Position numbers and translations under genes: made by a program. Shown here in pieces: positions 33,016-51,703 of a stretch of 64,000 nucleotides of DNA. Within the stretch, counting starts at the first letter, position 1, and each line of letters begins with the position of its first letter. This DNA is from Candidatus Levyibacteriota bacterium (GTDB taxonomy: Bacteria; Patescibacteriota; Microgenomatia; Levybacterales; UBA12049), in NCBI GenBank assembly GCA_038254115.1, contig JBBSGK010000001.1:67778-131777 (forward strand), given 5' to 3'. Below the pieces are notes generated by a model that ran no database searches, had not been told where the DNA came from, and worked only from the letters and a program-made list of their open reading frames with translations.

Positions 33016-34409
33016 CTACTGCAAAGATTTTTTATATTTTCAGCTAATTTTTTTGCTCTCTCGGGGGCGTCGCCAGTGTGGGATTTTACATCTAGCAATT
33101 CTTCAATTTCTTTTTTATTGAGATATTTGTTAATTGTTTGATCAGACAATAATAAATCTTTCATTGGGTTTGGATTGCCATTTGATACTTCTTCCCAAGC
33201 TTTCATTGAAATTTCTCGAAGCACCTCGTGCGTCTCCTGGCGGTCTGCGCCTTTTTTAACTGATTCAATTATTATCAGCTCAGTTGCCGAGAAAGGAGCA
33301 TATTGATTAAGGTTTTGCATGATTTTGTTTTCATTAATAACCATTCCGCCAATTAATTTTTTTGCAGTTTCCAAAATATCATCTGTTGCTAGAAAAGCTT
33401 CGGGCATAATAACACGTTTGTTGGCAGAATCGTCAAGAGTTCTTTCAAGAAGTGAAACAGAGGCATTCTCTAGCGCAACCGGAGGGAGCGATCTAACATA
33501 TCTTGCAAGTGAACAAACTTTTTCAGATGTAAAAGGATTTCTTTTAAAAGGCATTGCCGATGATCCGACTTGTTTTTTACCAAACGGCTCAGACCATTCA
33601 CCAAAACCGGGGGATTGCATAATACGCAAATCAAATGCAAACTTTGAGATGCTGGATGCAATTGATGCCAGCGAAGATAGAATAAAGTAATCAAATTTTC
33701 TAGGATTAACCTGGCTTGAGATTAGAACAGCATCAAGGTCCAAGTCTTTCAAGAATTTTTCTTCAAGTTGGGCCGGTGTGGTAGTAGTTCCTTTCAATAA
33801 TGCTGAGTAACTTGCCGCTGTGCCGACTGCGCCTTTTAAACCTTTTCCTTTGATGGTTTGTTTAATAAAACGCAATTGTCCAAGATCCAGCAAAAGGTCT
33901 TGCGCATAAAAAGCAAATCTATATCCGAGAGTTGTCGGTTCTGCCGGCTGCAAATGAGTGTATCCCATGCATGCATGATCTGCATATTTTGAGATTTTTT
34001 CCTCAAGAAGTTTTAATACACTTATTAATTTTTCTTCAATTATATTTAGCGCTTCTTTGTTACGGAGTGTTTCTGCATTGTCAACAATGTCCTGACTTGT
34101 TGCACCCAGATGAATTTTTCCACCGCCAATTTTTGCTTTTTCTGAAAATTCTTTCAGAGCTGAAACTACATCATGATTTGTGTCTTTTTCAATTTCAAGT
34201 ATACGCCCGATGTCAAAATCGTCTACATTTTTTTCCAGATCCTTCAGTTCCTCAGTACTTACCAATCCCGTAGAGTTTTGTGCTTTTGCAAGTGCCACCC
34301 AGAGTTTTCTCCAGGTCCTGTATTTATTTTCCTCACTAAAAATACCTCTCATTTTTTCAGATCCGTATCTCCAGCTAAAAGGCGATTGATATGTTTTAAA
34401 ATTTATCAT
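33012..34409 (-). CDS. purB: Adenylosuccinate lyase
   Basis: Fumarate-lyase signature GATSQDIVDNA. Length 465 aa. Confidence 0.9.
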   Translation of the reverse strand: MINFKTYQSPFSWRYGSEKMRGIFSEENKYRTWRKLWVALAKAQNSTGLVSTEELKDLEKNVDDFDIGRILEIEKDTNHDVVSALKEFSEKAKIGGGKIHLGATSQDIVDNAETLRNKEALNIIEEKLISVLKLLEEKISKYADHACMGYTHLQPAEPTTLGYRFAFYAQDLLLDLGQLRFIKQTIKGKGLKGAVGTAASYSALLKGTTTTPAQLEEKFLKDLDLDAVLISSQVNPRKFDYFILSSLASIASSISKFAFDLRIMQSPGFGEWSEPFGKKQVGSSAMPFKRNPFTSEKVCSLARYVRSLPPVALENASVSLLERTLDDSANKRVIMPEAFLATDDILETAKKLIGGMVINENKIMQNLNQYAPFSATELIIIESVKKGADRQETHEVLREISMKAWEEVSNGNPNPMKDLLLSDQTINKYLNKKEIEELLDVKSHTGDAPERAKKLAENIKNLCSR

Positions 34410-35497
34410 GAAATTATTGAATCTAGCTTATTTGATTCTGCTGCTTCTTTTATTTCCATAGCTACCCGTTTACCGACATTGATTGGCTCTCCAAATAAAT
34501 ATCCGCTGTAGGGAGTTGCTGTAATTCCCGGAGATCCGGGGAATCTTGGCGAGACATCAATTACAACAATATCCTTTTTTGGAGGACCCGGTATTATAAA
34601 AGATTGAAGTGCAAAGGGTCCAATTATACCGGGATTCTTTAGTTTATTGCATGCTGTCACAAATCTTTCTCCTATTTCAAATACCTGCTCAAGCATAGAT
34701 TCAAGAACAGTAACTGCAGTATGGCTTGCTTCCTCATATGAGATGGTTACTTTTTTTAATAATTCCTCCTGGTAATTTAGAGGAAGTTTCGTGATGCCGT
34801 CAAAATTTGTCTGTCGTCTGGTATCTGTTCCTAGTAATTCCAAGCGGTTATGGATAGGAGAATAGAAAAAATTAAAATTTACTTGGACTCCAACAATAAA
34901 TTCTTCAATTACTGCTTTCTTTAGCAAGTCTTCTGTGATTAGACCAAGATATAATTTTTGCTCTGTTTGCTTAATATAGTCTTCATAACTATCAACTATA
35001 AAAAATGCCCTCTCAAACTCTCGCTCCTTTTCAAGAACTTTCACAAGACACACCCTGTCAATTTTTTTGGGATCCTTGAATTGTTTCGGATAGCGTATCC
35101 CTGCTGCGTCTAAGAGATCGTATTGATTTGGTTTGGCCCCTCTTTCTTCAATTCTTAACAATTTTTTGTTGCCAAACATAGGAACTGAGAATTTGTTTTC
35201 AATTGCATCATAGTCATTTATATAAACTTCAAATGACCTGTTGGGAATAAATATTGCGTTTTTACTCTTTAACTTTTCCTGAATAGGTGGTGTTAGAATA
35301 TCAGAAAATTTATCAACCAATAAAATTTCATCAACGCATCCAAGATTGCCTTTGGTTTTATAATAATTTGCATACGTTTTTTCCCTTCCTTTTTGGCATA
35401 CAATTATATTCTTAAATCCGATGTCCTTGGCGCCGCGGGCAACTTCAAGTGCTGAATGGCTGCCTATTGTTGCGATAGTTATGTTTTTATTATTCAT
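34406..35497 (-). CDS. PurP-like ATP-grasp protein; divergent paralog of archaeal FAICAR synthetase
   Basis: IATIGSHSALEVARGAK, SVPMFGNKKLL and NFNFFYSPI are collinear with M. jannaschii PurP TLGSHTSLHILKGAK, LVPMFGNRRIL and IHYFYSPL. Confidence 0.6.
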   Translation of the reverse strand: MNNKNITIATIGSHSALEVARGAKDIGFKNIIVCQKGREKTYANYYKTKGNLGCVDEILLVDKFSDILTPPIQEKLKSKNAIFIPNRSFEVYINDYDAIENKFSVPMFGNKKLLRIEERGAKPNQYDLLDAAGIRYPKQFKDPKKIDRVCLVKVLEKEREFERAFFIVDSYEDYIKQTEQKLYLGLITEDLLKKAVIEEFIVGVQVNFNFFYSPIHNRLELLGTDTRRQTNFDGITKLPLNYQEELLKKVTISYEEASHTAVTVLESMLEQVFEIGERFVTACNKLKNPGIIGPFALQSFIIPGPPKKDIVVIDVSPRFPGSPGITATPYSGYLFGEPINVGKRVAMEIKEAAESNKLDSIIS

Positions 35498-36144
35498 TGG
35501 TGATGATGCTTGATAGGTTCTAATCCGTCGACTTCTTCAATGAAAAAATCAACGCCATCAGTTTTTATCTTGATATATGCGGTATTTGCAATTGAATAAT
35601 CGGCAAGCTCCTTGTATGTTTTATATCCCAAGTGAACTAAGAACGTTCTCATAATTGAGGTGTGACTGATTGTCAAAACGGTCTTGTTAGGGTAGGAAAT
35701 AGCAATTTCCCGGAGCGCAGTTATAAATCGTGACATAACTTCCTCATCAGTTTCGCGTCCAACGGCAAGAGTTTTACTTTTCCATTCATCATAAGGAATG
35801 TTATACATTGTATCTATAATTTCCTTTATTTCTTTTTTTGCTTCAGCTGTAGGGCGTCCTTCCAATACTCCATGAAACCTTTCTTTCAAGTGTTCTTTGG
35901 TAAGAACGGCGAGCTTATGTTCCTCAGCAATAATTTTGGCGGTTTGCTGTGCTCTTACCAAAGGTGATGCAAAAATGACATCAAATTTAATTTTTTTAAG
36001 GTTTTTTGCCGCATCTTTCGCCTGCTCTTGCCCTTTTTCAGTTAATTCTTTATCTAGTCCGTAGGTATCAACAGGATGGTTTCCATGGGATTGTCCATGG
36101 CGTACTAGATAAATTGTGCAATAGTTTTTATCTTTCATAGTCAA
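35494..36144 (-). CDS. Histidine phosphatase (phosphoglycerate-mutase superfamily) protein
   Basis: IYLVRHGQSHGN with the RHG catalytic motif. Confidence 0.8.
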   Translation of the reverse strand: MTMKDKNYCTIYLVRHGQSHGNHPVDTYGLDKELTEKGQEQAKDAAKNLKKIKFDVIFASPLVRAQQTAKIIAEEHKLAVLTKEHLKERFHGVLEGRPTAEAKKEIKEIIDTMYNIPYDEWKSKTLAVGRETDEEVMSRFITALREIAISYPNKTVLTISHTSIMRTFLVHLGYKTYKELADYSIANTAYIKIKTDGVDFFIEEVDGLEPIKHHHQ

Positions 36145-37687: not shown

Positions 37688-38704
37688 CTAATCCAGAATA
37701 ATTGAAAGTTTGTCTTTCTTAATAGCATTTTTTATTTCCCTGGCAATTCTCCGGCCTGTACTCATCGGTTCATTGTAATAAAGCCAAGAGTAAGCAGAGC
37801 CGTTGATAAATAAGTTTGTTCCGGCGACGATTCTTGCGGAAATTTCCAAAACAAAAAACCTGCCGTCAGGAGTGATAATTGTCTCAAGACAGAAAGGACC
37901 AAAAATTCCCCTTTTATCAATCACTTTTTTTGATTGCGCTATCGTTTTTTTGGCCATATTATATGCCTCAGAAAGCATACTTTCACGTAGTACCAAATCG
38001 CTGTTCCCGACAACAACGTAGCTTGGCTCAATATCTAGCTCTTCTTGTCCGAGGAGTGGAATTCTTCCTATGCCATCAGCATTGGTTTCATAGCGCCTAT
38101 CCATACTCATGATTTCAAGTTTATTGGATAGAGGGGAGTAAAAATAGTGAATATATAACGGGACACCTATGACATATTCTTGTATTACAAATTGTTTATT
38201 CTCAAAAACGCTTATTTTATTTTCAAAATCACTTCTGTTTTTTGCGTAGAAATATCCTTTGCCGCCTGATGCACCATATGACTTAACAATGATAGGGTAT
38301 TTTACCGGCTCGTGCTCAAAATCAAATTGGTGGGGCACATTGATTCCTGCATTTACAAGCCACTCGCGCTGCTTTTGTCTGTCTTCTTCCCAGTCGAGGA
38401 CATTTTTATTGCCATAATACAAAACGTTCATACTCTTATTCTTCTCAGCGCCGAGATAGGCAACAAATGAGCCGTGAGGAATTAGAATTACATTCTTATC
38501 TATTAATTCTTTCTCAATCGTCGGGAATTCAGAAAAAGAGGGGAGAGTTATAAATTCATCAATAAAGGGAAATGTTTTATAAAACTCTTCTTTTCCTGGA
38601 GTTGTTATTATTAGAGTTCTGAATCCTTCATCTTTTGCACCTTTTAATATCTGAAGCGCCGAGTGGCTTCCAAGTGTCGAGATTATGTATTTTTTATTAT
38701 TCAT
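37688..38704 (-). CDS. purP: 5-formaminoimidazole-4-carboxamide ribonucleotide synthetase, archaeal-type (formate-dependent)
   Basis: ISTLGSHSALQILKGAKDEGF, IPHGSFVAYLG, YIHYFYSPL and FVLEISARIVAGTN are collinear with M. jannaschii PurP. Confidence 0.8.
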   Translation of the reverse strand: MNNKKYIISTLGSHSALQILKGAKDEGFRTLIITTPGKEEFYKTFPFIDEFITLPSFSEFPTIEKELIDKNVILIPHGSFVAYLGAEKNKSMNVLYYGNKNVLDWEEDRQKQREWLVNAGINVPHQFDFEHEPVKYPIIVKSYGASGGKGYFYAKNRSDFENKISVFENKQFVIQEYVIGVPLYIHYFYSPLSNKLEIMSMDRRYETNADGIGRIPLLGQEELDIEPSYVVVGNSDLVLRESMLSEAYNMAKKTIAQSKKVIDKRGIFGPFCLETIITPDGRFFVLEISARIVAGTNLFINGSAYSWLYYNEPMSTGRRIAREIKNAIKKDKLSIILD

Positions 38705-38705
38705 G

Positions 38706-39551
38706 TTATTTAAAGTATTTTACAGCATTTTTGAATATTTGTAACCCTGGTCCATCAACCGGAAGTTTTTGTCCCTCTCTATTATACTTTTCTTTCAGCA
38801 ATTGCCAATTGGGAATTTGATTAAAAAACATTCCCCGTTCAGGATGGGGCATAAGACCCAAGATTTTACCTGTGCTGTCAGTAATGCCTGCAATATCATC
38901 AATTGAGCCATTAGGATTGGCAGGAAGATCCAGATAAATACTCATTTCTCCCAGTGTATACTGTAGTGCAATTTGTCTGTTTTTATGTAATTCCTTGAGA
39001 TCTTTTTTGTCTACGAAAAACTTTCCTTCACCATGTGCGATTGGTAGGGACAGAGTATCAATTCCCAAGAGCCAGGGAGTATCGGATACGACCCTCAGGT
39101 CTACCCAGCGGGTAATAAACCGAGCCGATTGGTTGTAAACCTGTGCAACCTGTCTTTCACCGTAGTTTTGAGAAAGGGCCGGAATAAGGCCAAGATTTGT
39201 AACAATCTGGCAGCCATTACATATTCCAATGATAAGCTTATCTTTCTCAAGAAACTTTTGTATTTGCACCCAAAGATGATTACGTACTTTATTTGCGTAT
39301 GCATTTCCGGCACCTGTGTCATCTCCATATGCAAAACCGCCCGGGAAGGACAATATTTGGTATTTATCCAGTTTTTCCCGCCCATCAACGATATCATTGA
39401 TATGAACAATGTCTGAGCTAGCCCCTGCTAATTCAAAGCCATATGCGGTTTCTTCTTCTGAATTTAGTCCGTATCCTGAAAAAACTAAAACTTTTGGTTT
39501 GTTCATAATATTAATAATCCGCAAATGTTTTTCTATACGCGTTTGTTGCAT
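38706..39551 (-). CDS. purQ: FGAM synthase glutaminase subunit (class I glutamine amidotransferase)
   Basis: VFSGYGLN..., GGFAYGDD, IGICNGCQI with a catalytic Cys, and the MPHPER His. It overlaps the purL 3' end by 41 nt. Confidence 0.8.
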   Translation of the reverse strand: MQQTRIEKHLRIINIMNKPKVLVFSGYGLNSEEETAYGFELAGASSDIVHINDIVDGREKLDKYQILSFPGGFAYGDDTGAGNAYANKVRNHLWVQIQKFLEKDKLIIGICNGCQIVTNLGLIPALSQNYGERQVAQVYNQSARFITRWVDLRVVSDTPWLLGIDTLSLPIAHGEGKFFVDKKDLKELHKNRQIALQYTLGEMSIYLDLPANPNGSIDDIAGITDSTGKILGLMPHPERGMFFNQIPNWQLLKEKYNREGQKLPVDGPGLQIFKNAVKYFK

Positions 39552-42537
39552 CTTTCAAATTCAAGTTAATTATCTCCTCTCCTTTTAGTCCATTAATTTT
39601 TATGGTTGGTTCTTTGACTATTTTTCCAATTTGGGATATCGCGTTTCCTAGCATAGCTTTTTCAAATATTTTTTTATTGCTTGGCGCAATTGTCACTAAA
39701 ATTCTTCCCTGGCTTTCCGAGTATAGTGCAAAATCATTTCTGTTTACGCTGCCCGGTAAATTTTTCAAATAAATATCTGCCCCAAGCTGTCCACCTATTA
39801 TTTTTTTGGCAAGTGCAACAGCGAGTCCTCCGCGCCCAATGCTAATGCTTGATGCGATAAGTTTTTGCTGAATTGCATTATAGTAAGAAGCATATAATTT
39901 TTTATTTTTCTCGGCATCTACATCCGGCACGATACTTCCTGTTTGATTAATCATCGAAAAATATTCAGATCCACCTAATTCTTCGTGTGTTTCTCCCAAA
40001 ATGTAAATTATGTCTCCAGCAAATTTTGCATCAAGTGAAACGGTTTTTGTTATGTCATCAATCACACCAATTGATGAAATGAGAAGAGTGGGGGGGACTG
40101 AGATTTTGATAGGCAAGCCATTATTATCAAATCCTTTAAAGTCATTGAACATGCTATCTTTTCCTGAAATAAAAGGAGTGCCATATGATACTGCATAATC
40201 GTAGCAAGCTTTTGCGGTTTGTTTTAATTGCCATAAGCGTTCCGGTTCAAAGCTTTCGCACCAGCAAAAATTGTCCAAAAGCGCGATTATGTCAGGCTTG
40301 GCTCCTGCGGCAATAACATTTCTTACTGCGCTATCGATACAAACTGCACCCATTTTGTAAGGATCAATTTCAGAATAACTAGGATATAAAGCTTGGGACA
40401 TTACTACTCCCTTTTGGCTTTTTAAAATAGGTTTGATTACCGATGCATCAGCATTCACTCTGCCCCGCCCCTGAAGCGGCCCCAGGACTGCGTTACTTTG
40501 AACGATATTATCGTATTGTTGTGATATAAATTTAAAACTTGTTAGATTCATACGCGACAACATTGAAAGCAATATTTTTTTTTGATCTTTTGGTTCTGCA
40601 ATGCTTAATTCTTGCTTCTTAATGCTTAATTCTTTGGTTTCAAGTTGGCGCTTAGGAAGACCGTCGTGTAAAAACTCTAAATCAACATCCATTATTTTTT
40701 TACCGTTATAGTCGACAACACACCGGCCGCTTCTTGTAAATTCACCAATTATAGTTGCCTCAACACCCCGCCTCTTCATAAGATCTGAAAATTTCTTCCA
40801 GTTATTTTTGGGAATGGCAAGTGTCATACGCTCCTGGGATTCCGAGATCCAAATTTCCCAGGGATCAAGGCCTGCATACTTAAGTGGTACTTTTTCAAGA
40901 TCTACAATGCAGCCGCCTGATTCTTTTGCCATTTCCGAAACTGAGCAGGAAAGTCCGCCGGCTCCATCGTCTGTGATGCTGTTGTACAGCAACTGATCAC
41001 GCGCTTCTTTTATGATAGCATCACTCATTTTTTTCTGAGTAATCGGATCACCAATTTGTACTGCAGCAGCAGGGCTTCCACTGTCTAGCCCAACTGATGA
41101 AAAAGTAGCTCCGTGAATTCCATCCTTACCGACTCGCCCCCCGGTCATTACTATCAAGTCGCCAGGTAGGGATTTTTTAATGTGTGATAATTTGCCTTTA
41201 ATTTTTTTCGGGATTAGTCCGATTGTACCGGCAAACACCAAAGGTTTACCCCTATAACGCTCATCAAAGTATATAAATCCCTGAGGTGTCGGAATTCCTG
41301 ATTGATTCCCTCCTGCATTTACACCGTCTATTACTCCGTCCATTATCCTCCTGCTGGAGAGTATTGGATTTTTGAGGTCTTTATCACGATATAAAATTAT
41401 TTCATCCGATGGATCTCCTGCCCGCAACGCTCTCGCTTGCGAGGCGGGCGGGGCGAGACAAAACCCGTAAAAATTGGCAATAGGTTTGGCACCTAGACCA
41501 AATCCGATCGTATCGCGGTTAACGCCTACAATCCCGGTTATGGATCCCCCATATGGGTCAAGAGCTGATGGGCTATTATGTGTTTCTACTTTGTGAGTTA
41601 TTAAATAATTATCATCAAAAACAATTGCTCCTGAGTTATCTGTAAAAACAGAAACACAGAAATCCTTTTTGCCTTTCTTTTTTCTAATCTCTTCCGTTGC
41701 CCGCTTAATATAAGTTTTGTAAAGCCCGCCTTTTATTTTATCAATTGGTCCTCCAAAAATTGTATGCTTGCAATGTTCAGACCATGTCTGGGCAATTGAC
41801 TCCAGCTCAATATCAGTGGGATTACGTCCTAGCTTTTTAAAATATTTTTGAATTGCTTTCATAAATAGAAGATCAAGAGCAAGAGGACCACGCCGGGTCT
41901 CATCAGAATTTAAAATTCCAGATTTTCCAATTTTTATCAACTCCTCGTCTGATATATTGAGATTAACATCTGTTACTTGAGGTTTTTTAATAAGTTTTAC
42001 TTTGGAAGTAACGATATCCATCCCTCCGTCTTTAATAAACTGCCCGCAGCTTTTTATAAGTGTTCTCTGAATTAGAGGATTATGAAGACTTAGTGCGATT
42101 TGTTCTGCATCCGCTTTTGAAATTTTTCCATTAATGAATGTGACTTGGGAAGTGTAAACATCTTCATCGTTTGAAAATTTTATTTTCAAAGTGTCTTCAA
42201 TTATTTCTTTCGCAGTGTGCGCTATGTTATCGGTCACTCCCGGAAGAAATCCAATTTCTATTGCAAAACTAAACTGGTTTTCTAGTTTTGCCTTTTTGTT
42301 TTTTGTTCGAAATATAAAATTCTGAGTGACAGGATTGGATAATGCTTGTGCAATTGATTCGAGATGTTTTTCTGAAAATGATTTGTCAACAGTATATACA
42401 TCGATTATCCAAAGATCTGAAATATTTTTAAAGCCAAAACCATTTAGCTTTTTTTGCCGAGTTTGCGCTCTTGCATCAAAATCTTTTACTATAATTCCTA
42501 TCCTTGTTGTCATATCTTTCCAATGTCCAATCTGCAT
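39511..42537 (-). CDS. purL: FGAM synthase, large (E. coli-type) N-domain plus synthetase domains but without a glutaminase domain
   Basis: Two PurM-like repeats with glycine-rich motifs. Length 1008 aa. Confidence 0.9.
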   Translation of the reverse strand: MQIGHWKDMTTRIGIIVKDFDARAQTRQKKLNGFGFKNISDLWIIDVYTVDKSFSEKHLESIAQALSNPVTQNFIFRTKNKKAKLENQFSFAIEIGFLPGVTDNIAHTAKEIIEDTLKIKFSNDEDVYTSQVTFINGKISKADAEQIALSLHNPLIQRTLIKSCGQFIKDGGMDIVTSKVKLIKKPQVTDVNLNISDEELIKIGKSGILNSDETRRGPLALDLLFMKAIQKYFKKLGRNPTDIELESIAQTWSEHCKHTIFGGPIDKIKGGLYKTYIKRATEEIRKKKGKKDFCVSVFTDNSGAIVFDDNYLITHKVETHNSPSALDPYGGSITGIVGVNRDTIGFGLGAKPIANFYGFCLAPPASQARALRAGDPSDEIILYRDKDLKNPILSSRRIMDGVIDGVNAGGNQSGIPTPQGFIYFDERYRGKPLVFAGTIGLIPKKIKGKLSHIKKSLPGDLIVMTGGRVGKDGIHGATFSSVGLDSGSPAAAVQIGDPITQKKMSDAIIKEARDQLLYNSITDDGAGGLSCSVSEMAKESGGCIVDLEKVPLKYAGLDPWEIWISESQERMTLAIPKNNWKKFSDLMKRRGVEATIIGEFTRSGRCVVDYNGKKIMDVDLEFLHDGLPKRQLETKELSIKKQELSIAEPKDQKKILLSMLSRMNLTSFKFISQQYDNIVQSNAVLGPLQGRGRVNADASVIKPILKSQKGVVMSQALYPSYSEIDPYKMGAVCIDSAVRNVIAAGAKPDIIALLDNFCWCESFEPERLWQLKQTAKACYDYAVSYGTPFISGKDSMFNDFKGFDNNGLPIKISVPPTLLISSIGVIDDITKTVSLDAKFAGDIIYILGETHEELGGSEYFSMINQTGSIVPDVDAEKNKKLYASYYNAIQQKLIASSISIGRGGLAVALAKKIIGGQLGADIYLKNLPGSVNRNDFALYSESQGRILVTIAPSNKKIFEKAMLGNAISQIGKIVKEPTIKINGLKGEEIINLNLKDATNAYRKTFADY

Positions 42538-43784
42538 TGCATGCCTTCAAAATGAATTCCATTTTTTCCAATTGCAGAATAAGCTTTTTTCAGTGCCTCA
42601 TTAAGTGTTTTACCTATTGCAGTTATACCAAGAACGCGACCCCCGTTTGTCAAAATTTTTCCATTTGCTTTTTTTGTTGCGAAGTGAAAAACAAAAATAT
42701 CTTCGTTTTTAATATTATTTAATCCATGAATTTCAATATTTTTTTTGTAACTTCCCGGGTATCCTGGGGATGCAAGGATGATGCAGCATGCAGATTGTTT
42801 AGCCCACTTTATATTTAACTCAGATAAATTTCCTTCTACGCAGGCAACTAGAATATCATAGAAATCTGTTTGCAGAAGTCTCATGTACGATTCCATTTCA
42901 GGATCTCCAAATCTTGAATTAAATTCAATTACTTTGGGTCCATCTTTTGTCATCATGAGTCCGGGATAAAGACAACCTACAAATGGTATGCCTTTTTTCT
43001 TAAGCCCGTTTAATGCCGGCTCAACAATTTTTTTCTTTATAGTTTCCAGATCATTTTTTGTAATATCCGGAACCGGTGCGATGGTTCCCATACCGCCTGT
43101 ATTTGGTCCGAGGTTTCCATCATGGATTGGTTTGTGATCACGTGATGCGGGCCATATTGAAAAAATATTTCCATCTGAAAAAACATGAATTGATATCTCT
43201 TTGCCTTGTAGAAATTCCTCTATCACCACTTCGTTCCCGGCTTCTCCAAATATCTTTTTTACCATAAGTTCATTAATTGTCCCCAAGGCTTGGTCTAAAC
43301 TCCGGGCAATTATTACCCCTTTTCCTAGCGCTAAACCCGATGCTTTGATAACTACGGGAAATGTGTGGTTTTTGAGATATGTCTTTGCATCAGCGGCATT
43401 TTTAAAAGTTGAAAATTTTGCAGTTGGAATTTTTTCATCTTTCATTAAATCTTTGGCAAATGATTTTGACCATTCTATCTTTGCCGCTTCTTTTGTGGGG
43501 CCAAAAATCTTTAATCGTTTTTTCTGAAACGCATTTACAATCCCGGCGGCAAGTATATCATCAGGTCCTGCAATGGTTAGAGCAATTTTATTTGTTATCG
43601 CAAATTTAATTAGTCTATCAAAATCGAGCGGATTAATACTTGTATTCTCACCAACAGTTTCCGTTCCTGCAGTGCCAGGGGAAAAGTAAATTTTCCCAAC
43701 TTTTGGAGATTGCTTCAATTTCCATCCCAACGCATGCTCCCGCCCGCCTGAACCGATAATTAAAACATTATTTTTTTTCACCAA
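42510..43784 (-). CDS. purD: Phosphoribosylamine--glycine ligase
   Basis: VLIIGSGGREHALGWKL. Confidence 0.9.
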   Translation of the reverse strand: MVKKNNVLIIGSGGREHALGWKLKQSPKVGKIYFSPGTAGTETVGENTSINPLDFDRLIKFAITNKIALTIAGPDDILAAGIVNAFQKKRLKIFGPTKEAAKIEWSKSFAKDLMKDEKIPTAKFSTFKNAADAKTYLKNHTFPVVIKASGLALGKGVIIARSLDQALGTINELMVKKIFGEAGNEVVIEEFLQGKEISIHVFSDGNIFSIWPASRDHKPIHDGNLGPNTGGMGTIAPVPDITKNDLETIKKKIVEPALNGLKKKGIPFVGCLYPGLMMTKDGPKVIEFNSRFGDPEMESYMRLLQTDFYDILVACVEGNLSELNIKWAKQSACCIILASPGYPGSYKKNIEIHGLNNIKNEDIFVFHFATKKANGKILTNGGRVLGITAIGKTLNEALKKAYSAIGKNGIHFEGMQCRLDIGKI

Positions 43785-45904
43785 ATAAATTCTCCTTTGC
43801 TGATATCAATACCATTTTTTATTACATGAAGAACTCGCTTTATTGCAGTTGGTAGAATTACATGTTCAGTTTCATGTATTTTTTTCTCCCATGATTCAAA
43901 TGTATCTTCAGGTCTTCTTCTTATCTCAGATTTCATAATAATTGGTCCCATGTCAAAGTGATTGCCTGCAACTATCTGATGAATTGTTATTCCTGAAACC
44001 GGCCACTCTTTTTCGAACGGAGGTTTAATTACTTGCATGCCCCATCCTCTAAGGACCGGAATTCTACCACGTGATGTTTGAACTGTTTCATCAAATTCTT
44101 TTGTAATTAGTGCGGGATGTAAGTTGATTGCACCAATTTGCATTTGTTGTATTTTTTCCCAAAATGGTTCTCCCAATATCATTGACCAGCCTGCTAATAC
44201 AATTAGATCAGGACGGTTTTTTTCTACATAATCAATTAATTTTATCTCATAATTTTCTCTTCCCAATTTATCAGATAATTTTCCTTCGTAAGGAATTACA
44301 ACCGACGGGATTTTATGTTTTTTTGCCCGGACCAGCCCATAAGCATCTTTTTTATTGGATACAACGCTAATTTTTGCATCAATATTCCCATTTTCTACCT
44401 GGTCAATTATTGCTTGCAAGTTTGTGCCGCCACCGGAAATGAACACTGCAATTTTTGGCTTTCCTGTTATTTTTTTATTTAATTTTGGAAGAGGTTTTTG
44501 TTTATCCCTGATTGGATGCGGACCGCCAAACGGGGCATAGTAAAAGTCTTCTTTCACGCCACCCATTGCTTCGGCAGTTTGTTCGATCGGTAGGTATATA
44601 ACTTTGTCCGCTTTTATGAGTTCTGCGATATTTTTTTCTATTCTATCAAACGGTTCTTTTTCAAATAGCGCAGCAGGCAATTCTTTCTTCGATCTCATGT
44701 CAATTCCCATATCGCACTGATCTACAACAGGAGGTGAGGCAAATGCCATATATATTTCTGTTGCTCCTGCTTTTTTGAGCTCCCTAGCCAAAATTTTACT
44801 TGTTGTAAGTCTTACCGCAGAGTCATCTACAACAACAACTTTTTTGCCTATCACCTCATCGGGAACTACGTTATGTTTGTGTCCGACAGCTGCCTCTCTT
44901 TTTTTCTGACCTGGTTGTATAAAGGTGCGCCCAATATAATGACTTGTCATGATTGCATCAACAAGTGGAAGTCCCAATGCCTTTGAAACTCCTTTTGCTG
45001 CAGGGTATCCAGAATCAAATACAGGAACTACAATATCAGGTTTAATATTTTTTTGTTTGATCCTCCGAGCCAAAAATGTTCCACTTCTTTCACGTCCAGC
45101 CTTAACCCGCCTTCCGTTAATAAAACTGTCTGGTCTTGTAAAATAAATATATTCAAGTATACAGAATTGGTGACGTTTGGGAACTCCGAAAAAGTAGGAA
45201 TTCAGTGATCCATCTTTACTTATTTTTATTATCTCACCGGGCGCAACATCGCGGACAAAATCAGCGCCCGTTGTATCTATGGATACGGATTCTGATGCGA
45301 TAATCCAGCCCTTGGGTAGTTTGCCAAGGCAAAGCGGGCGGATGCCAAAAGGGTCACGTACAGCGAAAATTGATCCATCTTCTGTCAGAATAGTCAAATT
45401 ATATGCCCCTTCAAAAAAGGGAAGGGTGTGCACAAGAGTTTCCTCCCAGCTATTAAAAGATTTGCGTTCTTTTATAAGAAGTTTGGCCATAAGCGTTGTA
45501 TCGCTGTTCGCTTTTTCGTGTCCTCCCAAATGCTTTTTAAGATTCGATACATCAGGAATGTTTCCGTTGTGGCCTATGCTTATTTGATATTTGTCATTTG
45601 TTATATCCAATGGTTGGGCATTTGAAAATGAGGATTCGCCGGAAGTTCCATAGCGGTTTTGTCCGATCACGGATTGGCTTTTACCCAAATTTTGAATAAT
45701 AGTATCAGTAAGCACATGAGGAACAAGCCCCATGCCTTTATATGTAACAATTTTATTTTTTGGAGTATAAACAGAGAGGCCTGCACTTTCAAGTCCGCGG
45801 TGCTGGAGAGCTGCTAGGGCTAGGCGTGCAAGGTATGGCGCATGACCGTTTGCATCCCATACTGCAATTACACCGCATTTCTCTCTTAAATCAATATTAC
45901 TCAT
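43778..45904 (-). CDS. Fusion protein: amidophosphoribosyltransferase (PurF, N-terminal) plus phosphoribosylglycinamide formyltransferase (PurN, C-terminal)
   Basis: N-terminus M-SNIDLREK-CGVIAV carries the Ntn Cys with a propeptide, followed by PRTase motifs. The C-terminus KIAVFISGGGTNLQAIID...NLHPAL is collinear with E. coli PurN. Confidence 0.85.
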   Translation of the reverse strand: MSNIDLREKCGVIAVWDANGHAPYLARLALAALQHRGLESAGLSVYTPKNKIVTYKGMGLVPHVLTDTIIQNLGKSQSVIGQNRYGTSGESSFSNAQPLDITNDKYQISIGHNGNIPDVSNLKKHLGGHEKANSDTTLMAKLLIKERKSFNSWEETLVHTLPFFEGAYNLTILTEDGSIFAVRDPFGIRPLCLGKLPKGWIIASESVSIDTTGADFVRDVAPGEIIKISKDGSLNSYFFGVPKRHQFCILEYIYFTRPDSFINGRRVKAGRERSGTFLARRIKQKNIKPDIVVPVFDSGYPAAKGVSKALGLPLVDAIMTSHYIGRTFIQPGQKKREAAVGHKHNVVPDEVIGKKVVVVDDSAVRLTTSKILARELKKAGATEIYMAFASPPVVDQCDMGIDMRSKKELPAALFEKEPFDRIEKNIAELIKADKVIYLPIEQTAEAMGGVKEDFYYAPFGGPHPIRDKQKPLPKLNKKITGKPKIAVFISGGGTNLQAIIDQVENGNIDAKISVVSNKKDAYGLVRAKKHKIPSVVIPYEGKLSDKLGRENYEIKLIDYVEKNRPDLIVLAGWSMILGEPFWEKIQQMQIGAINLHPALITKEFDETVQTSRGRIPVLRGWGMQVIKPPFEKEWPVSGITIHQIVAGNHFDMGPIIMKSEIRRRPEDTFESWEKKIHETEHVILPTAIKRVLHVIKNGIDISKGEFIW

Positions 45905-45916
45905 AATTAAAAGAAC

Positions 45917-45939
45917 AAAAAAACCCGCTCGTTAGCGGG
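45917..45939 (-). terminator. Intrinsic-terminator-like hairpin followed by a T7 run in the purF 5' leader, 12 nt upstream of the start codon
   Basis: On the minus strand: CCCGCU-aacg-AGCGGG followed by TTTTTTT. No convergent gene exists for it to terminate. Confidence 0.5.
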
Positions 45940-46093
45940 GTTATGTTTTTATGCTTCGGCACTGAGCATTCTAATTTAATTATAATATATCTCTTTTGTT
46001 GTTTCAATAGGATTTTTGCTACCTCCATATGGTATTATAGCACAATTACTCATAAATTACATTAAATTGGGCCCGATATGTTAAAATCAGTCC

Positions 46094-48168: not shown

Positions 48169-48618
48169 TTAGAAGATTTTTTTAAAATGATAGCCTTCAT
48201 TTTTATATCCCAAAGATTCATAAAATTCATGAGCTGCTGTACGGTCATAAACTGATTCGATAAACATGTTTAAGCAATCAAGCGCTTTAGCTTTTTCCTC
48301 AACAGCTTCCATAAGTTTTTTTCCAATTCCATGTTTTCTATATTCTTCTATAATAAATAATTCATCCAGTTCTGCGATCGGTTTGGGATATCTTATAACC
48401 AGCCTTATGGAAAATGTGGTAAAGCCTACTAATTTATTATTTTCTTCAGCCACAAATACGAAATTATTGGAGCTATCCAATACTTTTTCAAATGAATCAT
48501 TATTTTTTGTGGAAAATCTTTTCTTTCCTACAAATAAATTATAGAGATTAATTAGTTCTTCGTAGTCGGATAATTTTGCCAGCCTTATTTTCATTTTCCC
48601 CCTCCGCCTTTTTTCCAT
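48169..48618 (-). CDS. GNAT family N-acetyltransferase
   Basis: ELFIIEEYRKHGIGKKLMEAVEEKA is the acetyl-CoA-binding motif A. Confidence 0.8.
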   Translation of the reverse strand: MEKRRRGKMKIRLAKLSDYEELINLYNLFVGKKRFSTKNNDSFEKVLDSSNNFVFVAEENNKLVGFTTFSIRLVIRYPKPIAELDELFIIEEYRKHGIGKKLMEAVEEKAKALDCLNMFIESVYDRTAAHEFYESLGYKNEGYHFKKIF

Positions 48619-49346
48619 TCAACTGAGGTCAGGAGTTTGCCATATAAGTCTTTTTCGATCGGAAATATTACTGCATTCAATTCATCCGGTGTAGGGATTC
48701 TATCCTGAAACTTTACAAAAGATAAATCAGTAAGGATAGCAAGAGGAGTTTGTTCGTTTGTTTCGCCAATTACAACCACAGCTGATACGGCGAGGGATTC
48801 GATCACACTCACCTGAGTAAACATTATTTGTCTTCCGAAGATATCATTTTTGCCGACAAAGCTATTGATCGCTTCAAACCCGCACCAGCTGAGGCAACTG
48901 CCAATAACGCCTGTCCTGACAGGAATAATTCCACTGTCTGTTACAATTACGCCAAGATTTTTTATATTACGTTTTTCTCTTAGATACTGCCATATTTTAT
49001 CCGTAATCTCCTGCAGATTTTTTGGCCATAAAACATACCCTTCGTCTGTATTGGATTCGTCAATTCCGGCAGTGAATACAATAAGTCCGTTCTTGCGCGT
49101 GAGAAAGATTTTTCCATACTCAGAATCTTTATCATTCTCTATGTAATAGTCGGATTCTTTTTTTATAAGTTCCTCCTTTGTTATGGCTCCATCGTTTTTG
49201 ACAATATCCCCCTGGGTAATACTTACAATTTTTGAGGTAATAGCAACTACTGAATTTTCATTAAGAGGCGGTAGATATTTATCGAGAATTTTATAAAGAT
49301 CCTCACCGGCTTTTATTTTGTGGGTTTTGTAGGATCTGACTATCAT
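48591..49346 (-). CDS. CofE-like (F420-0:gamma-glutamyl ligase family) protein
   Basis: VVAITSKIVSITQGDIV...GIDESN...GVIVTDS matches the PF01996 pattern. The start is set at the internal Met (MIVRSY); the ORF track's upstream extension to 49550 looks non-coding. Confidence 0.55.
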   Translation of the reverse strand: MIVRSYKTHKIKAGEDLYKILDKYLPPLNENSVVAITSKIVSITQGDIVKNDGAITKEELIKKESDYYIENDKDSEYGKIFLTRKNGLIVFTAGIDESNTDEGYVLWPKNLQEITDKIWQYLREKRNIKNLGVIVTDSGIIPVRTGVIGSCLSWCGFEAINSFVGKNDIFGRQIMFTQVSVIESLAVSAVVVIGETNEQTPLAILTDLSFVKFQDRIPTPDELNAVIFPIEKDLYGKLLTSVEWKKGGGGK

Positions 49347-49449
49347 GCGGAAATTATAACATAATCTAAATCTGGCAATTATTTTATCGTCATTCAGAAG
49401 AAAATATATAATTGACTTTAGCCTATAGCAATGGTATACTATCGGTCTT

Positions 49450-51045
49450 ATGGCAGTACAAATTGAACTGAGACCTGGACATTCTGATGGTAGACCTCCT
49501 ACGCTAAAAGAAAGAGTGGCTAGAATAGGAAAGCGGAGAATCCCATCCAATGCTGTTGGTGAGTTCTGGCAACTTCGTGGTGAGCGTAACCCCGGTCATA
49601 TCTTCGGTGGCGTGATCTTAAGAAGTATGGAGGATCTGGCGATACAAGGTGCTGTTCCTTCTCTTCCTGCATTTCAAGATATTAACGAAGGTAATCGAAT
49701 CGATTCCATGGAGCTAGGAACAGATATTAATATAAACGCTCTGTCTCCGGACGCTCAGGAGGAGATTTCCTTAAGAAAATCTCAAATTGACGGACTTATT
49801 ACAGCAGACACATCTACTATGGATGATGGCGAGAGAAAAGAGCATGAGGCAAAGCTAAAAGCAGTTAGAATATTCATAGATGGATTATCATATGAAATGA
49901 AGCCGGCAATACTTCGCTCATTGGGTTTCGATGTTCCCCAAGGCACGTATGATGTAGATCCCCGTGAGTTCAGGACAAGCATAGAAAACCGTATCAAATC
50001 TAACGGCGAACCGGTAAGCAGACAGTTTGTAGCATTAGCGGGATATGTAAATGCAAGAGACCGTGTGCACACCGACTTATTGTTTGAGCGTTTCAAAAAC
50101 GAAAGGATGGAAATATTCAGAGAGCAAACAAACAGGCTTATAGACGAGGGTGTACTTCCGTTGGACCGTGAAGTCTTTGATGACCGCCTGAGGCGGGAGG
50201 CAGATTGGTATTTGACCGATGAGATATCAGAAGTGCTTACATACGATTTTCCGTATGTCTCACGTGGTTGGGCAGTCGCAGCACAAGGATTCATTACTTT
50301 TACTAAAAATTCCTATGACCTTGCTCCTTCCGAGAATGTATCACACGCAACAAGAGGTAATTTTGCAGATCATGAACTTGTCCACACATACATAGCGGGT
50401 AAAAGGTTTGTTAAAAAGGAGGGAGAAATAGTCGTTGCAACAAAAAAAGGATTTTATGAATTTGTTGAAAAAAGTGAAGGAGCTAGCTTTAGTACTAATC
50501 ATTGGATAGATGAAGGAATTACTGAATACCTCATGGTTTTACTCGGCAGAGATGAGAGAGTACGAGAAGAGCGCGCAGACGAAAAAAAGCATATCTATGA
50601 TACAGCTTATATTCCTGTCTTCAAAGCACTTGCTGAGGAGATAGGCTATGAGCCATTTCTTAAGTACTTTGTGATGGACCGTGATCCGGATGATCCCGAT
50701 CCTTTTAACCAAGCGCGAAGGAATCTGGTAAAAAAGCTTGATAATGAATTTGGGCACGCGACCCTGATTCGTTTGTCTGAATATATGGATGGATATGTTT
50801 TAGACGGGGCAGACGATGCAAATAAGGCAATACTAGCCGGATCAAAGAAATTACTTGGTGCAATGGCCGAGGATAAATCCACAATAAGTGAGCGATTTGC
50901 AGATGAGGAATTGAGAGAGTATAGTAAAAATCCAAGTCCAGCTGTTGCCCGTGAACTTTATCCAAAGTTCAATGAATTACTGGATCAAGCAATTGAATGG
51001 TCAAAAAAACAAAGAAAAGAGCGGCTTGCTACATTACCTGAATAA
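49450..51045 (+). CDS. Hypothetical cytoplasmic protein with an HExxH motif (possible zincin-like)
   Basis: HELVH is followed about 40 aa later by DEGITEY. There is no signal peptide. Local GC is higher than in neighbouring genes. Confidence 0.4.
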   Translation: MAVQIELRPGHSDGRPPTLKERVARIGKRRIPSNAVGEFWQLRGERNPGHIFGGVILRSMEDLAIQGAVPSLPAFQDINEGNRIDSMELGTDININALSPDAQEEISLRKSQIDGLITADTSTMDDGERKEHEAKLKAVRIFIDGLSYEMKPAILRSLGFDVPQGTYDVDPREFRTSIENRIKSNGEPVSRQFVALAGYVNARDRVHTDLLFERFKNERMEIFREQTNRLIDEGVLPLDREVFDDRLRREADWYLTDEISEVLTYDFPYVSRGWAVAAQGFITFTKNSYDLAPSENVSHATRGNFADHELVHTYIAGKRFVKKEGEIVVATKKGFYEFVEKSEGASFSTNHWIDEGITEYLMVLLGRDERVREERADEKKHIYDTAYIPVFKALAEEIGYEPFLKYFVMDRDPDDPDPFNQARRNLVKKLDNEFGHATLIRLSEYMDGYVLDGADDANKAILAGSKKLLGAMAEDKSTISERFADEELREYSKNPSPAVARELYPKFNELLDQAIEWSKKQRKERLATLPE

Positions 51046-51052
51046 AGCAACT

Positions 51053-51703
51053 TCATTTATCCTTTTTGAGCCAGTTGACGCCGAGATAGACGAGGGGGGT
51101 CTCGATGATAGACATGAAGCAGCGGAGAAGATAATAGGGAATTGCCAGGCCAATTATAAAGCTTAAATTACTTGCAAATGGTTTATCAAGAGCATAGAAA
51201 GCAAGCGTCATAAAAATAGCAGTATCCAGAAGTTCTGAGCCAAAGTTTGATAGATTTGTTCTGAGCCAGAGTTTGGTTTTGCCAAATTTTTTCTGAAGCC
51301 TGGCAAAAATATAGATATCTGAAAATTCACTAATTATAAAAGCAATCAGACTGGCTGCAGAGAATCTTGCAGAAATCCCAAAGATTGTATTGTAAGCTGT
51401 GTTGGTAGGCAAGAATCTTTTACTTGGCGGTAGATAAGTTACAAGAAGGGAAAAAAGCAAAATAAATAAAATCATAAAAAGGCTCGATCTCACAACGCTT
51501 TGGGCCCGTTCTTTACCAAAGACTTCAACGATAATATCATTGATTGAATAAATGAGAGGTAGGACAAAAAGCGCAACAGTTGCATTCAGGTGAAACGTTC
51601 CGATAGTTGCAATGGGGAAAGTTTTGGCTCCCATGAGTTCGGAGAGGATGACACAGGTTGTGTAAAAAGCGATAAGGAAATCTAATTTGTTGATTTTAAA
51701 CAT
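51053..51703 (-). CDS. YhhQ/VUT-family (DUF165) queuosine-precursor transporter
   Basis: Polytopic, 216 aa, with FHLNATVALFVLPLIYSINDIIVEVFG as in YhhQ. Confidence 0.75.
   Translation of the reverse strand: MFKINKLDFLIAFYTTCVILSELMGAKTFPIATIGTFHLNATVALFVLPLIYSINDIIVEVFGKERAQSVVRSSLFMILFILLFSLLVTYLPPSKRFLPTNTAYNTIFGISARFSAASLIAFIISEFSDIYIFARLQKKFGKTKLWLRTNLSNFGSELLDTAIFMTLAFYALDKPFASNLSFIIGLAIPYYLLRCFMSIIETPLVYLGVNWLKKDK

What the first reader, a model, noticed from the sequence alone, without database searches (positions are those of the whole stretch)
43778..45904. PurF-PurN fusion protein
A single 708-aa ORF carries a full Ntn-glutamine amidotransferase/PRTase (pathway step 1) followed by a complete formyltransferase domain (step 3, GGGTNLQAI...NLHPAL). 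PurD (step 2) is encoded separately immediately downstream. To my knowledge this architecture is unusual; eukaryotic GART fuses PurD-M-N instead.
Basis: partly seen in the sequence, partly recalled or inferred. Interest (0 to 1): 0.5.

Follow-up and report, generated by a model that had tools for sequence, protein, structure and literature searches.

The report
Fused PurF–PurN purine enzyme
One gene in this small-genome bacterium really does join the first and third enzymes of purine synthesis into a single protein; the fusion is conserved across its whole lineage but undescribed in the papers searched, so it is a new arrangement of well-known enzymes, not a new kind of system.

Summary
Window 43778-45904 (-) is one uninterrupted 708-aa ORF. 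PurF covers residues 10-466, a 17-residue linker follows, and PurN covers 484-708. purD comes next and overlaps the stop codon.

It is not an assembly artefact. 117 full-length homologues (55-77% identical, many independent assemblies) share the architecture. The spacing across the junction is identical in 117 of the 118 aligned sequences, and the catalytic residues of both enzymes are invariant.

The fusion is the norm in a clade of small-genome Patescibacteria/CPR bacteria (source labels Levyibacteriota, Roizmanbacteria), about 15 clusters at 50% identity. Two other PurF-PurN fusions with different linkers and PurN types look independent. Adjacent but separate purF and purN, the likely precursor state, occur in Solirubrobacterales and Armatimonadota.

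AlphaFold2 gives pLDDT 90 and pTM 0.91, with an ordered linker. The gene heads a 14-gene operon that encodes every other step to IMP.

No paper found and no PDB chain has this architecture. Databases hold it under uninformative names.

Verdict: a real bifunctional step-1/step-3 enzyme and a new architectural variant of known multifunctional purine enzymes. It is "unusual" only relative to model organisms. Interest is moderate; its main value is as a natural handle on the PurF-PurD-PurN channelling question.

The parts
43778..45904 (-). purFN coding sequence: 708 aa plus TGA stop, a bifunctional amidophosphoribosyltransferase / GAR formyltransferase
45878..45904 (-). N-terminal propeptide (residues 1-9, MSNIDLREK) before the nucleophile Cys10. 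Its length varies across homologues: 1 to 60 residues, with Met-Cys directly in 12 of 118.
45185..45877 (-). Ntn glutamine amidotransferase domain of PurF (about residues 10-240; boundary approximate). Invariant residues: C10, R84/Y85/T87, H112-N113-G114-N115, D135.
44507..45184 (-). Type I phosphoribosyltransferase domain of PurF (about residues 241-466). The PRPP loop VVVVDDSAVRLTTS has D360, D361, S362, R365, T367, T368 invariant. The domain ends in FYYAPFGGPHPIR, where B. subtilis-type enzymes carry the CxxC iron-sulfur ligands.
44456..44506 (-). Inter-domain linker (residues 467-483, DKQKPLPKLNKKITGKP). Length is fixed across the family; Q469, F/L472, P473, K474, K476, I479, K482 are conserved; AlphaFold2 predicts it ordered (pLDDT about 90).
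43781..44455 (-). PurN (GAR formyltransferase) domain, residues 484-708. It has the GAR phosphate loop SGGGTNLQ and the invariant catalytic N594, H596, D651.
44060..44104 (-). 15-residue insertion (601-615, TKEFDETVQTSRGRI) just after the catalytic His. T610, S611, G613 are conserved, and it is predicted to form a beta-hairpin. It makes the His-to-Asp spacing 54 residues instead of 35-40.
43778..43800 (-). Translational-coupling junction. The AGGAG Shine-Dalgarno sequence (43796-43792) lies inside the 3' end of purFN, and the purD start (TTG 43784 or GTG 43781) overlaps the purFN TGA (43780-43778).
   Evidence: The same 7-nt overlap is called in L083-L086.
42510..43784 (-). purD (step 2, GAR synthetase), a separate 424-aa gene with canonical length and domains
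45905..46007 (-). Operon leader: promoter TTGAAA-17-TATAAT (46007-45979), a small 5' hairpin, and an intrinsic terminator CCCGCTAACGAGCGGG followed by seven T (hairpin at 45939-45924), 19 nt before the ATG. This is associated regulation, not part of the fusion itself.

Best explanation
This is a genuine bifunctional enzyme. The N-terminal 466 residues form a PRPP amidotransferase: after removal of a 9-residue propeptide, Cys10 hydrolyses glutamine, and ammonia passes to the PRTase site to make phosphoribosylamine. The C-terminal 225 residues form a folate-type GAR formyltransferase using the Asn-His-Asp triad, which makes FGAR. The gene arose by loss of the stop codon and spacer between adjacent purF and purN genes. 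It has been kept through deep divergence of a Patescibacteria/CPR clade. It is the first gene of a tightly packed operon that encodes every other step to IMP. purD, the step between the two fused activities, is translated from a start codon that overlaps the purFN stop.

Shown: the reading frame; the domain identities; conservation of the catalytic residues; the fixed and conserved linker; the synteny; and the distribution.

Inferred: that both activities are real; that the PurN domain is the cell's step-3 enzyme and uses 10-formyl-THF; and that the fusion gives 1:1 stoichiometry and a fixed relative geometry of the two active sites, into which PurD may dock.
For: Uninterrupted ORF. Full-length matches to the PurF and PurN profiles.

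Residue-level alignment to B. subtilis PurF 1AO0/1GPH starts at mature Cys1 = C10. Alignment to the PurN structures 5CJJ, 2YWR and 3TQR also holds. Foldseek gives TM-scores (normalised to the target) of 0.86 to PurF and 0.76-0.87 to PurN structures.

In the 118-sequence alignment (window plus 117 homologues) the following are invariant: C10, R84/Y85/T87, H112-N115, D135, D360/D361/S362/R365/T367/T368, and N594/H596/D651. Mean identity to the window protein is similar in both halves (0.61-0.71 for PurF, 0.55-0.58 for PurN). Both halves are therefore similarly conserved.

Linker length is identical in 117/118, with conserved hydrophobic and proline positions. AlphaFold2 gives pLDDT 90 and pTM 0.91, with linker pLDDT about 90. 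The only long disordered stretch, 323-342, lies where established PurF structural work places the PRTase flexible loop.

The operon contains purD, purL, purQ, purM, purK, purE, purC, purB and purH. There is no other PurN homologue in the 64-kb window.

purFN-purD order with the same overlap recurs in relatives carried on contigs of 0.5-1.1 Mb.

Adjacent unfused purF and purN, with spacers of 9 and 53 nt, occur in L001 and L014. The L014 PurN already has a similar long loop.

A folate gamma-glutamate-ligase-like gene lies 2.7 kb away, and DHFR-like genes sit beside it in relatives.
Against: No enzymology exists. Both halves score just below NCBI's curated equivalog cutoffs: purF 327.6 against 350, PurN 134.9 against 150.1.

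The 15-residue insertion sits right after the catalytic His, near where canonical PurN has its active-site loop. Substrate or formyl-donor specificity could therefore differ.

No 10-formyl-THF-producing gene (folD, fhs) was seen in the window. The rest of the genome could not be examined, so a purT or a second purN elsewhere is not excluded.

Two PurP-like, formate-dependent-type ATP-grasp genes in the operon leave room for folate-independent formylation.

One fused relative (P0149) has lost the His and Asp of the triad. The domain can evidently persist without catalysis.

Inter-domain rigidity rests on a predicted pTM only.
Confidence: 0.8

Rival explanations
1. The fusion is a selectively neutral by-product of genome compaction. 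Adjacent purF and purN lost their spacer in a lineage that shrinks intergenic DNA. The two domains work independently, with no kinetic or structural coupling to each other or to PurD.
For: The operon is extremely compact with overlapping genes. A second fusion, a PurS-like N-terminus on PurL, sits two genes downstream and is a separate gene in relative L081. Adjacent purF-purN pairs with 9-53 nt spacers exist elsewhere. PurN is fused to many different partners in other lineages: PurD, PurC-PurE and proteins of about 500 aa. PurF-PurN has arisen repeatedly. Fusion of pur genes therefore looks easy.
Against: A neutral tether would be expected to drift in length and sequence. Instead 117/118 sequences have exactly the same spacing, and Q469, F/L472, P473, K474, K476, I479, K482 are conserved. 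The linker is predicted ordered and the whole chain has pTM 0.91. The fusion is retained down to about 32% identity in the PurN domain.
Confidence: 0.3
2. The C-terminal formyltransferase-like domain is not the GAR transformylase of the pathway. It has a changed role: a different formyl donor or acceptor, formyl-THF hydrolysis, or a purely structural or regulatory role. Step 3 would then be done by another enzyme, for example one of the PurP-like ATP-grasp proteins or a purT elsewhere.
For: The TIGR00639 score is below cutoff. A conserved 15-aa insertion next to the catalytic His gives a His-Asp spacing of 54 against 35-40. Two PurP-like genes of unproven function lie in the same operon (PMC3261824, which reports no demonstrated function for cluster II). 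P0149 keeps the domain with a broken triad.
Against: Asn-His-Asp and the GxGTNLQ phosphate loop are conserved in the window protein. The triad is invariant in all 118 aligned sequences. The best matches by sequence and fold are all PurN, not Fmt, PurU or ArnA. The long-loop PurN type also occurs as stand-alone genes, in L014 next to purF and purD. The operon otherwise lacks a step-3 gene.
Confidence: 0.1
3. Sequencing or assembly artefact: a lost stop codon or an indel in the A-rich junction (AAATAAAAAAATAACAGG) falsely joins two genes.
For: The junction contains an A7 run, a typical site for indel errors. Some relatives do show split genes that look like assembly indels: purD and PurL in L081, SecA in L082.
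Against: The same in-frame architecture appears in 117 full-length homologues from different projects and technologies, with conserved residues on both sides of the junction and identical spacing. It also appears in metagenome contigs found independently (L088-L099).
Confidence: 0.01

Closest known systems
Bacillus subtilis-type glutamine PRPP amidotransferase (PurF; PDB 1AO0/1GPH)
   Same: 33-34% identity over the whole PurF part, TM-score 0.86. It has an N-terminal propeptide before the nucleophile Cys, the same glutaminase residues and the same PRPP loop.
   Different: The window protein lacks the C-terminal CxxC pair of [4Fe-4S] ligands: FYYAPF replaces CxxCF, and only C248 and C397 remain. 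Deeper fused relatives still have CxxC. It carries PurN on its C-terminus. It scores just below the TIGR01134 cutoff.
Stand-alone bacterial PurN, GAR transformylase (e.g. E. coli 1CDE, C. jejuni 5CJJ, C. burnetii 3TQR)
   Same: Formyl_trans_N fold (TM-score 0.76-0.87), GxGTNLQ loop and Asn-His-Asp triad.
   Different: A 15-residue conserved insertion after the catalytic His gives a His-Asp spacing of 54 against 35-40. It is fused behind PurF. It scores below the TIGR00639 cutoff. The long-loop type also exists unfused (P0131, P0133, P0136, P0143, L014).
Eukaryotic trifunctional GART (PurD-PurM-PurN)
   Same: PurN is covalently joined to enzymes of non-adjacent steps of the same pathway. Multifunctional pur proteins are a recurring theme (own knowledge; reviewed in PMC10912719).
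   Different: The partners differ: steps 2 and 5 there, step 1 here. PurD is separate here. No sequence relationship exists beyond the shared PurN domain.
Other prokaryotic PurN fusions: halobacterial PurN-PurH1 (PMC3261824); PurN-PurD (P0176) and PurN-PurC-PurE (P0165, P0201) seen here
   Same: PurN is a promiscuous fusion partner within the pathway.
   Different: In those, PurN is N-terminal and joined to other steps. None links it to the committed first step.
Independent PurF-PurN fusions P0145 (636 aa) and P0230 (703 aa)
   Same: Same domain order, PurF then PurN.
   Different: P0145 has a canonical short-loop PurN (spacing 36), CLAC iron-sulfur ligands and a linker of about 11 residues. 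P0230 has a divergent PurF and a different PurN loop. In a neighbour-joining tree of PurN domains, both fall outside the clade that holds the window protein. They are therefore probably separate fusion events.

Membership tests
PurF (glutamine PRPP amidotransferase, EC 2.4.2.14) | N-terminal nucleophile cysteine exposed at the mature N-terminus (Ntn hydrolase) | tested here: met
   C10 aligns with mature Cys1 of B. subtilis PurF and is invariant in 118/118. It is preceded by Met alone or by a propeptide of up to 60 residues. Processing itself was not tested.
PurF (glutamine PRPP amidotransferase, EC 2.4.2.14) | Glutaminase-site residues (R-Y-x-T, H-N-G-N oxyanion region, acidic residue in the SDT motif) | tested here: met
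   R84, Y85, T87, H112, N113, G114, N115 and D135 are invariant in alignment A2 and align with the B. subtilis motifs.
PurF (glutamine PRPP amidotransferase, EC 2.4.2.14) | Type I PRTase PRPP-binding loop (hydrophobic run, DDS, x-V-R-x-TT) | tested here: met
   VVVVDDSAVRLTTS aligns with VVMVDDSIVRGTTS. D360, D361, S362, R365, T367, T368 are invariant.
PurF (glutamine PRPP amidotransferase, EC 2.4.2.14) | Score above the curated equivalog cutoff (TIGR01134) | tested here: not met
   327.6 bits against a cutoff of 350, although coverage is 1-429 of 432 profile positions. This probably explains why sources name relatives only 'formyltransferase family protein' or 'hypothetical protein'.
PurF, B. 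subtilis-type [4Fe-4S] subfamily | Four cysteine ligands of the cluster, including the C-terminal CxxC | tested here: not met
   C248 (104/118) and C397 (114/118) are present. The CxxC position reads F454-Y455-x-x-P458-F459 throughout the close family. Deep fused members P0142, P0146 and P0151 keep CxxCFGG.
PurN (GAR formyltransferase, EC 2.1.2.2) | Formyl_trans_N fold without the Fmt/ArnA-type C-terminal domain or the PurU ACT domain | tested here: met
   Pfam PF00551 at 112 bits against a cutoff of 26. Foldseek finds PurN structures only. Fmt and PurU models score 26-43 bits. The protein ends 15 residues after the domain.
PurN (GAR formyltransferase, EC 2.1.2.2) | Catalytic Asn-His-Asp (E. 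coli N106, H108, D144; numbering from own knowledge) | tested here: met
   N594, H596 and D651 are invariant in 118/118 and aligned with the same residues of solved PurNs.
PurN (GAR formyltransferase, EC 2.1.2.2) | N-terminal GAR phosphate-binding loop GxG(S/T)NLQ | tested here: met
   SGGGTNLQAI aligns with SGNGTNLQAI of 3TQR. S490 and G493 are invariant.
PurN (GAR formyltransferase, EC 2.1.2.2) | Score above the curated equivalog cutoff (TIGR00639) and canonical loop length after the catalytic His | tested here: not met
   134.9 bits against a cutoff of 150.1. The His-Asp spacing is 54 against 35-40 in canonical PurN, because of a 15-aa insertion.
PurN (GAR formyltransferase, EC 2.1.2.2) | Uses 10-formyl-tetrahydrofolate to formylate GAR | not testable with these tools
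   Only context is available: a folate gamma-glutamate-ligase-like gene at 48591-49550, and DHFR-like neighbours in relatives. No folD or fhs gene is in the window.
GART-type multifunctional purine protein | PurD and PurM domains on the same chain as PurN | tested here: not met
   Only the PurF and PurN domains are found. purD and purM are separate genes.

The most novel reading that the evidence does not exclude
PurFN is the scaffold of a minimal bacterial 'purinosome'. The fixed-length ordered linker holds the PurF and PurN active sites in a defined geometry. The translationally coupled PurD docks between them. The very labile phosphoribosylamine and then GAR are handed on without release. 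This would give the stable PurF-PurD channelling complex that could not be isolated from E. coli.
Probability: 0.15. Interest if true: 0.7.

Novelty: new variant of a known kind. Interest (0 to 1): 0.35.

Why it matters
Kinetic evidence for channelling of unstable phosphoribosylamine from PurF to PurD has existed since 1995. Yet no stable bacterial complex has been isolated, and a bacterial purinosome remains a hypothesis (PMC10912719, section 4.2).

This fusion is natural, ancient and tightly constrained. It ties the enzymes on either side of PurD into one chain, and PurD is made from an overlapping start codon. That makes it a ready system in which to look for such a complex by pull-down, kinetics or cryo-EM.

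It also matters for annotation. Both halves fall just under curated cutoffs, so pipelines name these proteins 'formyltransferase family protein' or 'amidophosphoribosyltransferase' only. That can make purine synthesis look incomplete in CPR genomes, which are often described as unable to make nucleotides.

If the domains simply act independently, the finding is only a catalogue entry.

Tried and rejected
- **GTDB genome scan with the full-length alignment.** No close relative was returned and the taxonomic spread could not be mapped that way. It did yield the unfused purF-purN neighbours L001 and L014. The apparent full-length hits L006, L010 and others are purF ... purN separated by another gene of about 1 kb, not fusions.
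- **Context look-up of the window's own protein P0001.** It was not on record.
- **Cluster look-up for names.** It returned none.
- **Foldseek against AFDB.** This would have shown whether UniProt holds and names the architecture. The library was unavailable.
- **Rfam at gathering and at permissive thresholds.** Nothing credible turned up in the window or in the operon leader.
- **Literature.** Five searches and four papers searched or read mention no PurF-PurN fusion. The Zhang/Morar/Ealick structural review (looked up under a PMC id recalled from memory) was not held.
- **A leader peptide in the operon leader.** Considered and dropped. The apparent peptide conservation is explained by the embedded promoter hexamers and the RNA hairpin.
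- **Taxon labels.** Xanthomonadales, Limnocylindrales, Acidoferrales and Sulfotelmatobacter labels on third-party (TPA) MAG records were set aside as probable mis-binning. The same odd labels recur for SecA of this lineage next to Patescibacteria, Levyibacteriota and Saccharimonadales labels.
- **Complex prediction.** A PurFN + PurD complex model could not be run, because the structure tool takes single chains of window sequences only.
Full report
**The observation**

The ORF listing shows a single ORF at 43778..45904 on the minus strand, 708 aa with an ATG start. Pfam finds the class-II glutamine amidotransferase domain (76-209), the phosphoribosyltransferase domain (276-385) and Formyl_trans_N (484-688, E 3e-32) on that one chain. 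NCBIfam aligns TIGR01134 (purF) to residues 10-461, covering 1-429 of 432 profile positions. It aligns TIGR00639 (PurN) to 484-693, covering 2-186 of 192 positions. Both enzymes are complete.

The next gene downstream is purD (42510..43784; 482 bits against a cutoff of 288). The DNA shows an AGGAG inside the 3' end of purFN. The purD start (TTG 43784 or GTG 43781) overlaps the purFN TGA at 43780-43778.

**Artefact or real**

The junction contains an A7 run, so a sequencing indel was worth excluding. A search of 5.8 billion proteins returned 120 best hits. All carry both the amidotransferase and the formyltransferase Pfam domains, and 117 are full length (699-757 aa, 55-77% identical to the window protein). 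One further hit is the window protein itself and two are truncated. They come from NCBI, JGI, ENA and Logan assemblies.

In an alignment of the window protein with these 117, all but one of the 118 sequences have exactly 25 residues between the PurF motif HP464 and the PurN residue S490. Linker positions Q469, F/L472, P473, K474, K476, I479, K482 and K484 are conserved. Twelve metagenome contigs found through a family-specific motif show the same contiguous arrangement. The fusion is real and old.

**The PurF half**

The alignment to B. subtilis PurF (1AO0/1GPH, 33-34% identity) begins at the mature Cys1, which equals C10 here. Residues 1-9 are therefore a propeptide, as in the B. subtilis enzyme.

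The following are invariant in all 118 sequences:
- the nucleophile C10;
- R84/Y85/T87;
- H112-N113-G114-N115;
- D135;
- the PRPP loop residues D360/D361/S362/R365/T367/T368.

Two of the four B. subtilis-type iron-sulfur ligands are missing. C248 and C397 remain, but the CxxC position reads F-Y-x-x-P-F. Deeply branching fused relatives (P0142, P0146, P0151) still have CxxCFGG, so the window's sub-clade lost these ligands after the fusion.

**The PurN half**

All PDB sequence matches are GAR transformylases, and Foldseek gives TM-scores of 0.76-0.87 to them. The phosphate loop SGGGTNLQ is present. The triad N594/H596/D651 is invariant.

The domain differs from canonical PurN by a 15-residue insertion right after the catalytic His (601-615, with T610, S611, G613 conserved). 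AlphaFold2 predicts it as a beta-hairpin.

I built a neighbour-joining tree of the 136 nearest PurN domains among 1.84 billion representatives. It shows that this 'long-loop' type (His-Asp spacing 50-56 against 35-40) is a wider subfamily that also occurs as stand-alone proteins. The insertion therefore predates the fusion and is not specific to it.

**Distribution and origin**

Among cluster representatives at 50% identity, about 15 proteins of 716-761 aa carry this PurN type at their C-terminus. The five checked with Pfam have the formyltransferase domain, and four of them (all but P0151) also have detectable amidotransferase domains.

Relatives sit on contigs of 0.5-1.1 Mb with the same purFN-purD order. 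SecA from the window has its closest named relatives in Levyibacteriota, the 'Patescibacteria group' and Saccharimonadales. One fused protein is labelled Roizmanbacteria. The short IF-2 and AlaRS in the window look typical of CPR genomes (own knowledge). The lineage is therefore CPR/Patescibacteria.

Adjacent but separate purF and purN, with spacers of 9 and 53 nt, occur in a Solirubrobacterales MAG and an Armatimonadota MAG. The latter's PurN already has a long loop. This is the plausible precursor state.

Two further PurF-PurN proteins have different linkers and PurN types: P0145 (canonical PurN, CLAC ligands, linker of about 11 residues) and P0230. Both fall outside the main fused clade. 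The architecture has probably arisen at least three times.

PurN is also found fused to PurD and to PurC-PurE, and in Halobacteria to PurH1 (PMC3261824).

**Context**

The gene heads a 14-gene minus-strand operon (45904 down to 28683). In order:
- purFN;
- purD;
- purL (1008 aa, with a weakly PurS-like N-terminal extension);
- purQ;
- a PurP-like ATP-grasp gene;
- purH;
- a histidine-phosphatase gene;
- a second PurP-like gene;
- purB, purK, purE, purC;
- a HAD phosphatase;
- purM.

Every step to IMP is encoded. The PurN domain is the only formyltransferase homologue in the 64-kb window. A folate gamma-glutamate-ligase-like gene lies nearby (48591-49550), and DHFR-like genes sit beside its orthologues in relatives. 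No folD or fhs gene was seen in the window.

**Structure prediction**

With the 118-sequence alignment, AlphaFold2 gives mean pLDDT 90 and pTM 0.91 for the whole 708-residue chain. The linker is at about 90. The only internal low-confidence segment is 323-342, which lies where established PurF structural work places the PRTase flexible loop. A pTM this high for a two-enzyme chain suggests a defined relative orientation. I could not inspect PAE or coordinates, so this is suggestive only. No PDB chain covers both halves; the best TM-score normalised to the query is 0.58.

**How it most likely works**

The sequence shows a chain with an intact PurF active-site set and an intact PurN active-site set. 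They are joined by a constrained linker. The chain is co-transcribed and translationally coupled with PurD.

From family knowledge I infer the following. The propeptide is removed. Cys10 releases ammonia from glutamine. Ammonia travels to the PRTase site and makes phosphoribosylamine. PurD converts this to GAR. The C-terminal domain formylates GAR with a folate formyl donor.

The fusion guarantees equal amounts and proximity of steps 1 and 3. Whether it also creates a docking site for PurD, and so channels the labile phosphoribosylamine, is a hypothesis. The fixed linker and the overlapping purD start motivate it. So does the long-standing, unresolved evidence for PurF-PurD channelling in E. 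coli (PMC10912719). I give it about 15%.

The main rival for why the genes are fused is neutral gene compaction in a streamlined genome. The rival that the PurN-like domain has another role is weakly supported by three things: the insertion, the sub-cutoff score, and one relative (P0149) with a broken triad.

**Novelty and score**

The parts are textbook enzymes, and multifunctional purine proteins are a known theme. This particular pairing of the committed step with step 3 is not in the papers I could search or in the PDB. It sits in databases under partial names.

I class it as a new variant of a known kind, with moderate interest (0.35). It is useful for annotating CPR metabolism and as a candidate system for testing channelling. 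It is not surprising in principle.

Noticed in passing
window 45905-46007 (minus strand); also L081, L083, L085/L092, L086, L089, L090, L093, L095, L096, L098, L099 upstream of purFN: In most of the 16 distinct loci examined, the pur operon has a conserved attenuator-like leader. A script confirmed the full layout in 11 distinct loci, and L098 and L099 fit by eye. A near-consensus promoter (TTGACA-17-TATAAA/T) is followed after 37-67 nt by an intrinsic terminator, (A)CCCGC-loop-GCGGG(T) plus T6-8, that ends 12-27 nt before the purFN ATG. The start of the transcript often forms a small ..ATGCy-loop-rGCAy hairpin. No Rfam family matches. What relieves termination is unknown. L084, L087 and L091 differ.
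   Followed up: partly
window 39511-42537 (minus strand): PurL is 1008 aa, with an N-terminal extension of about 220 residues that gives a weak PurS-like hit (residues 21-74, E 2e-6). In relative L081 this part is a separate 217-aa gene before a 771-aa PurL. This is a second fusion in the same operon, and it varies among relatives.
   Followed up: partly
window 37688-38704 and 34406-35497 (minus strand): There are two archaeal-type PurP-like (DUF1246/DUF1297 ATP-grasp) genes, 34% identical to each other, in a bacterial operon that also has a full-length purH. The first has the cluster-I P-loop SGGKG. The second lacks it, like the archaeal 'cluster II' proteins of unproven function (PMC3261824). 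Both score below the NCBIfam cutoffs.
   Followed up: partly
window 48591-49550 and 51053-51703 (minus strand); L081 6441-8385, L085 1-946: A folate gamma-glutamate-ligase-like gene (TIGR04132, F420_ligase fold) and a Vut_1-family transporter lie next to the pur operon. In relatives a RibD_C/DHFR-like gene sits between them. This hints at a conserved folate-salvage module beside the folate-dependent purine genes.
   Followed up: no
P0149 (fragment of a fused homologue from the representative search): This fused relative has Asn-Cys-Asn in place of the Asn-His-Asp triad and a degenerate GxGTNLQ loop. The PurN domain is retained there but is probably inactive.
   Followed up: no
window 35494-36144 and 29789-30436 (minus strand): A histidine-phosphatase-family gene and a HAD-family (beta-phosphoglucomutase-like) hydrolase are embedded in the pur operon. 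The former is conserved at the same place in L081. Their role in purine synthesis is unclear.
   Followed up: no
name columns: Several third-party (TPA) MAG records carrying this lineage's purFN and SecA are labelled Xanthomonadales, Limnocylindrales, Acidoferrales or Sulfotelmatobacter. The neighbouring hits are labelled Patescibacteria, Levyibacteriota, Roizmanbacteria or Saccharimonadales. These are probably mis-binned or mislabelled contigs.
   Followed up: no
window 1-64000: Rfam reports no match at gathering thresholds anywhere in the 64 kb on either strand, not even a tRNA.
   Followed up: no
L081 12363-13390 and L082 3603-6388: In the 1.14-Mb relative, purD is called as two pieces (193 + 148 aa) that start 239 nt after purFN. 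In a second assembly of the same organism SecA is split. These are probably assembly indels rather than biology.
   Followed up: no
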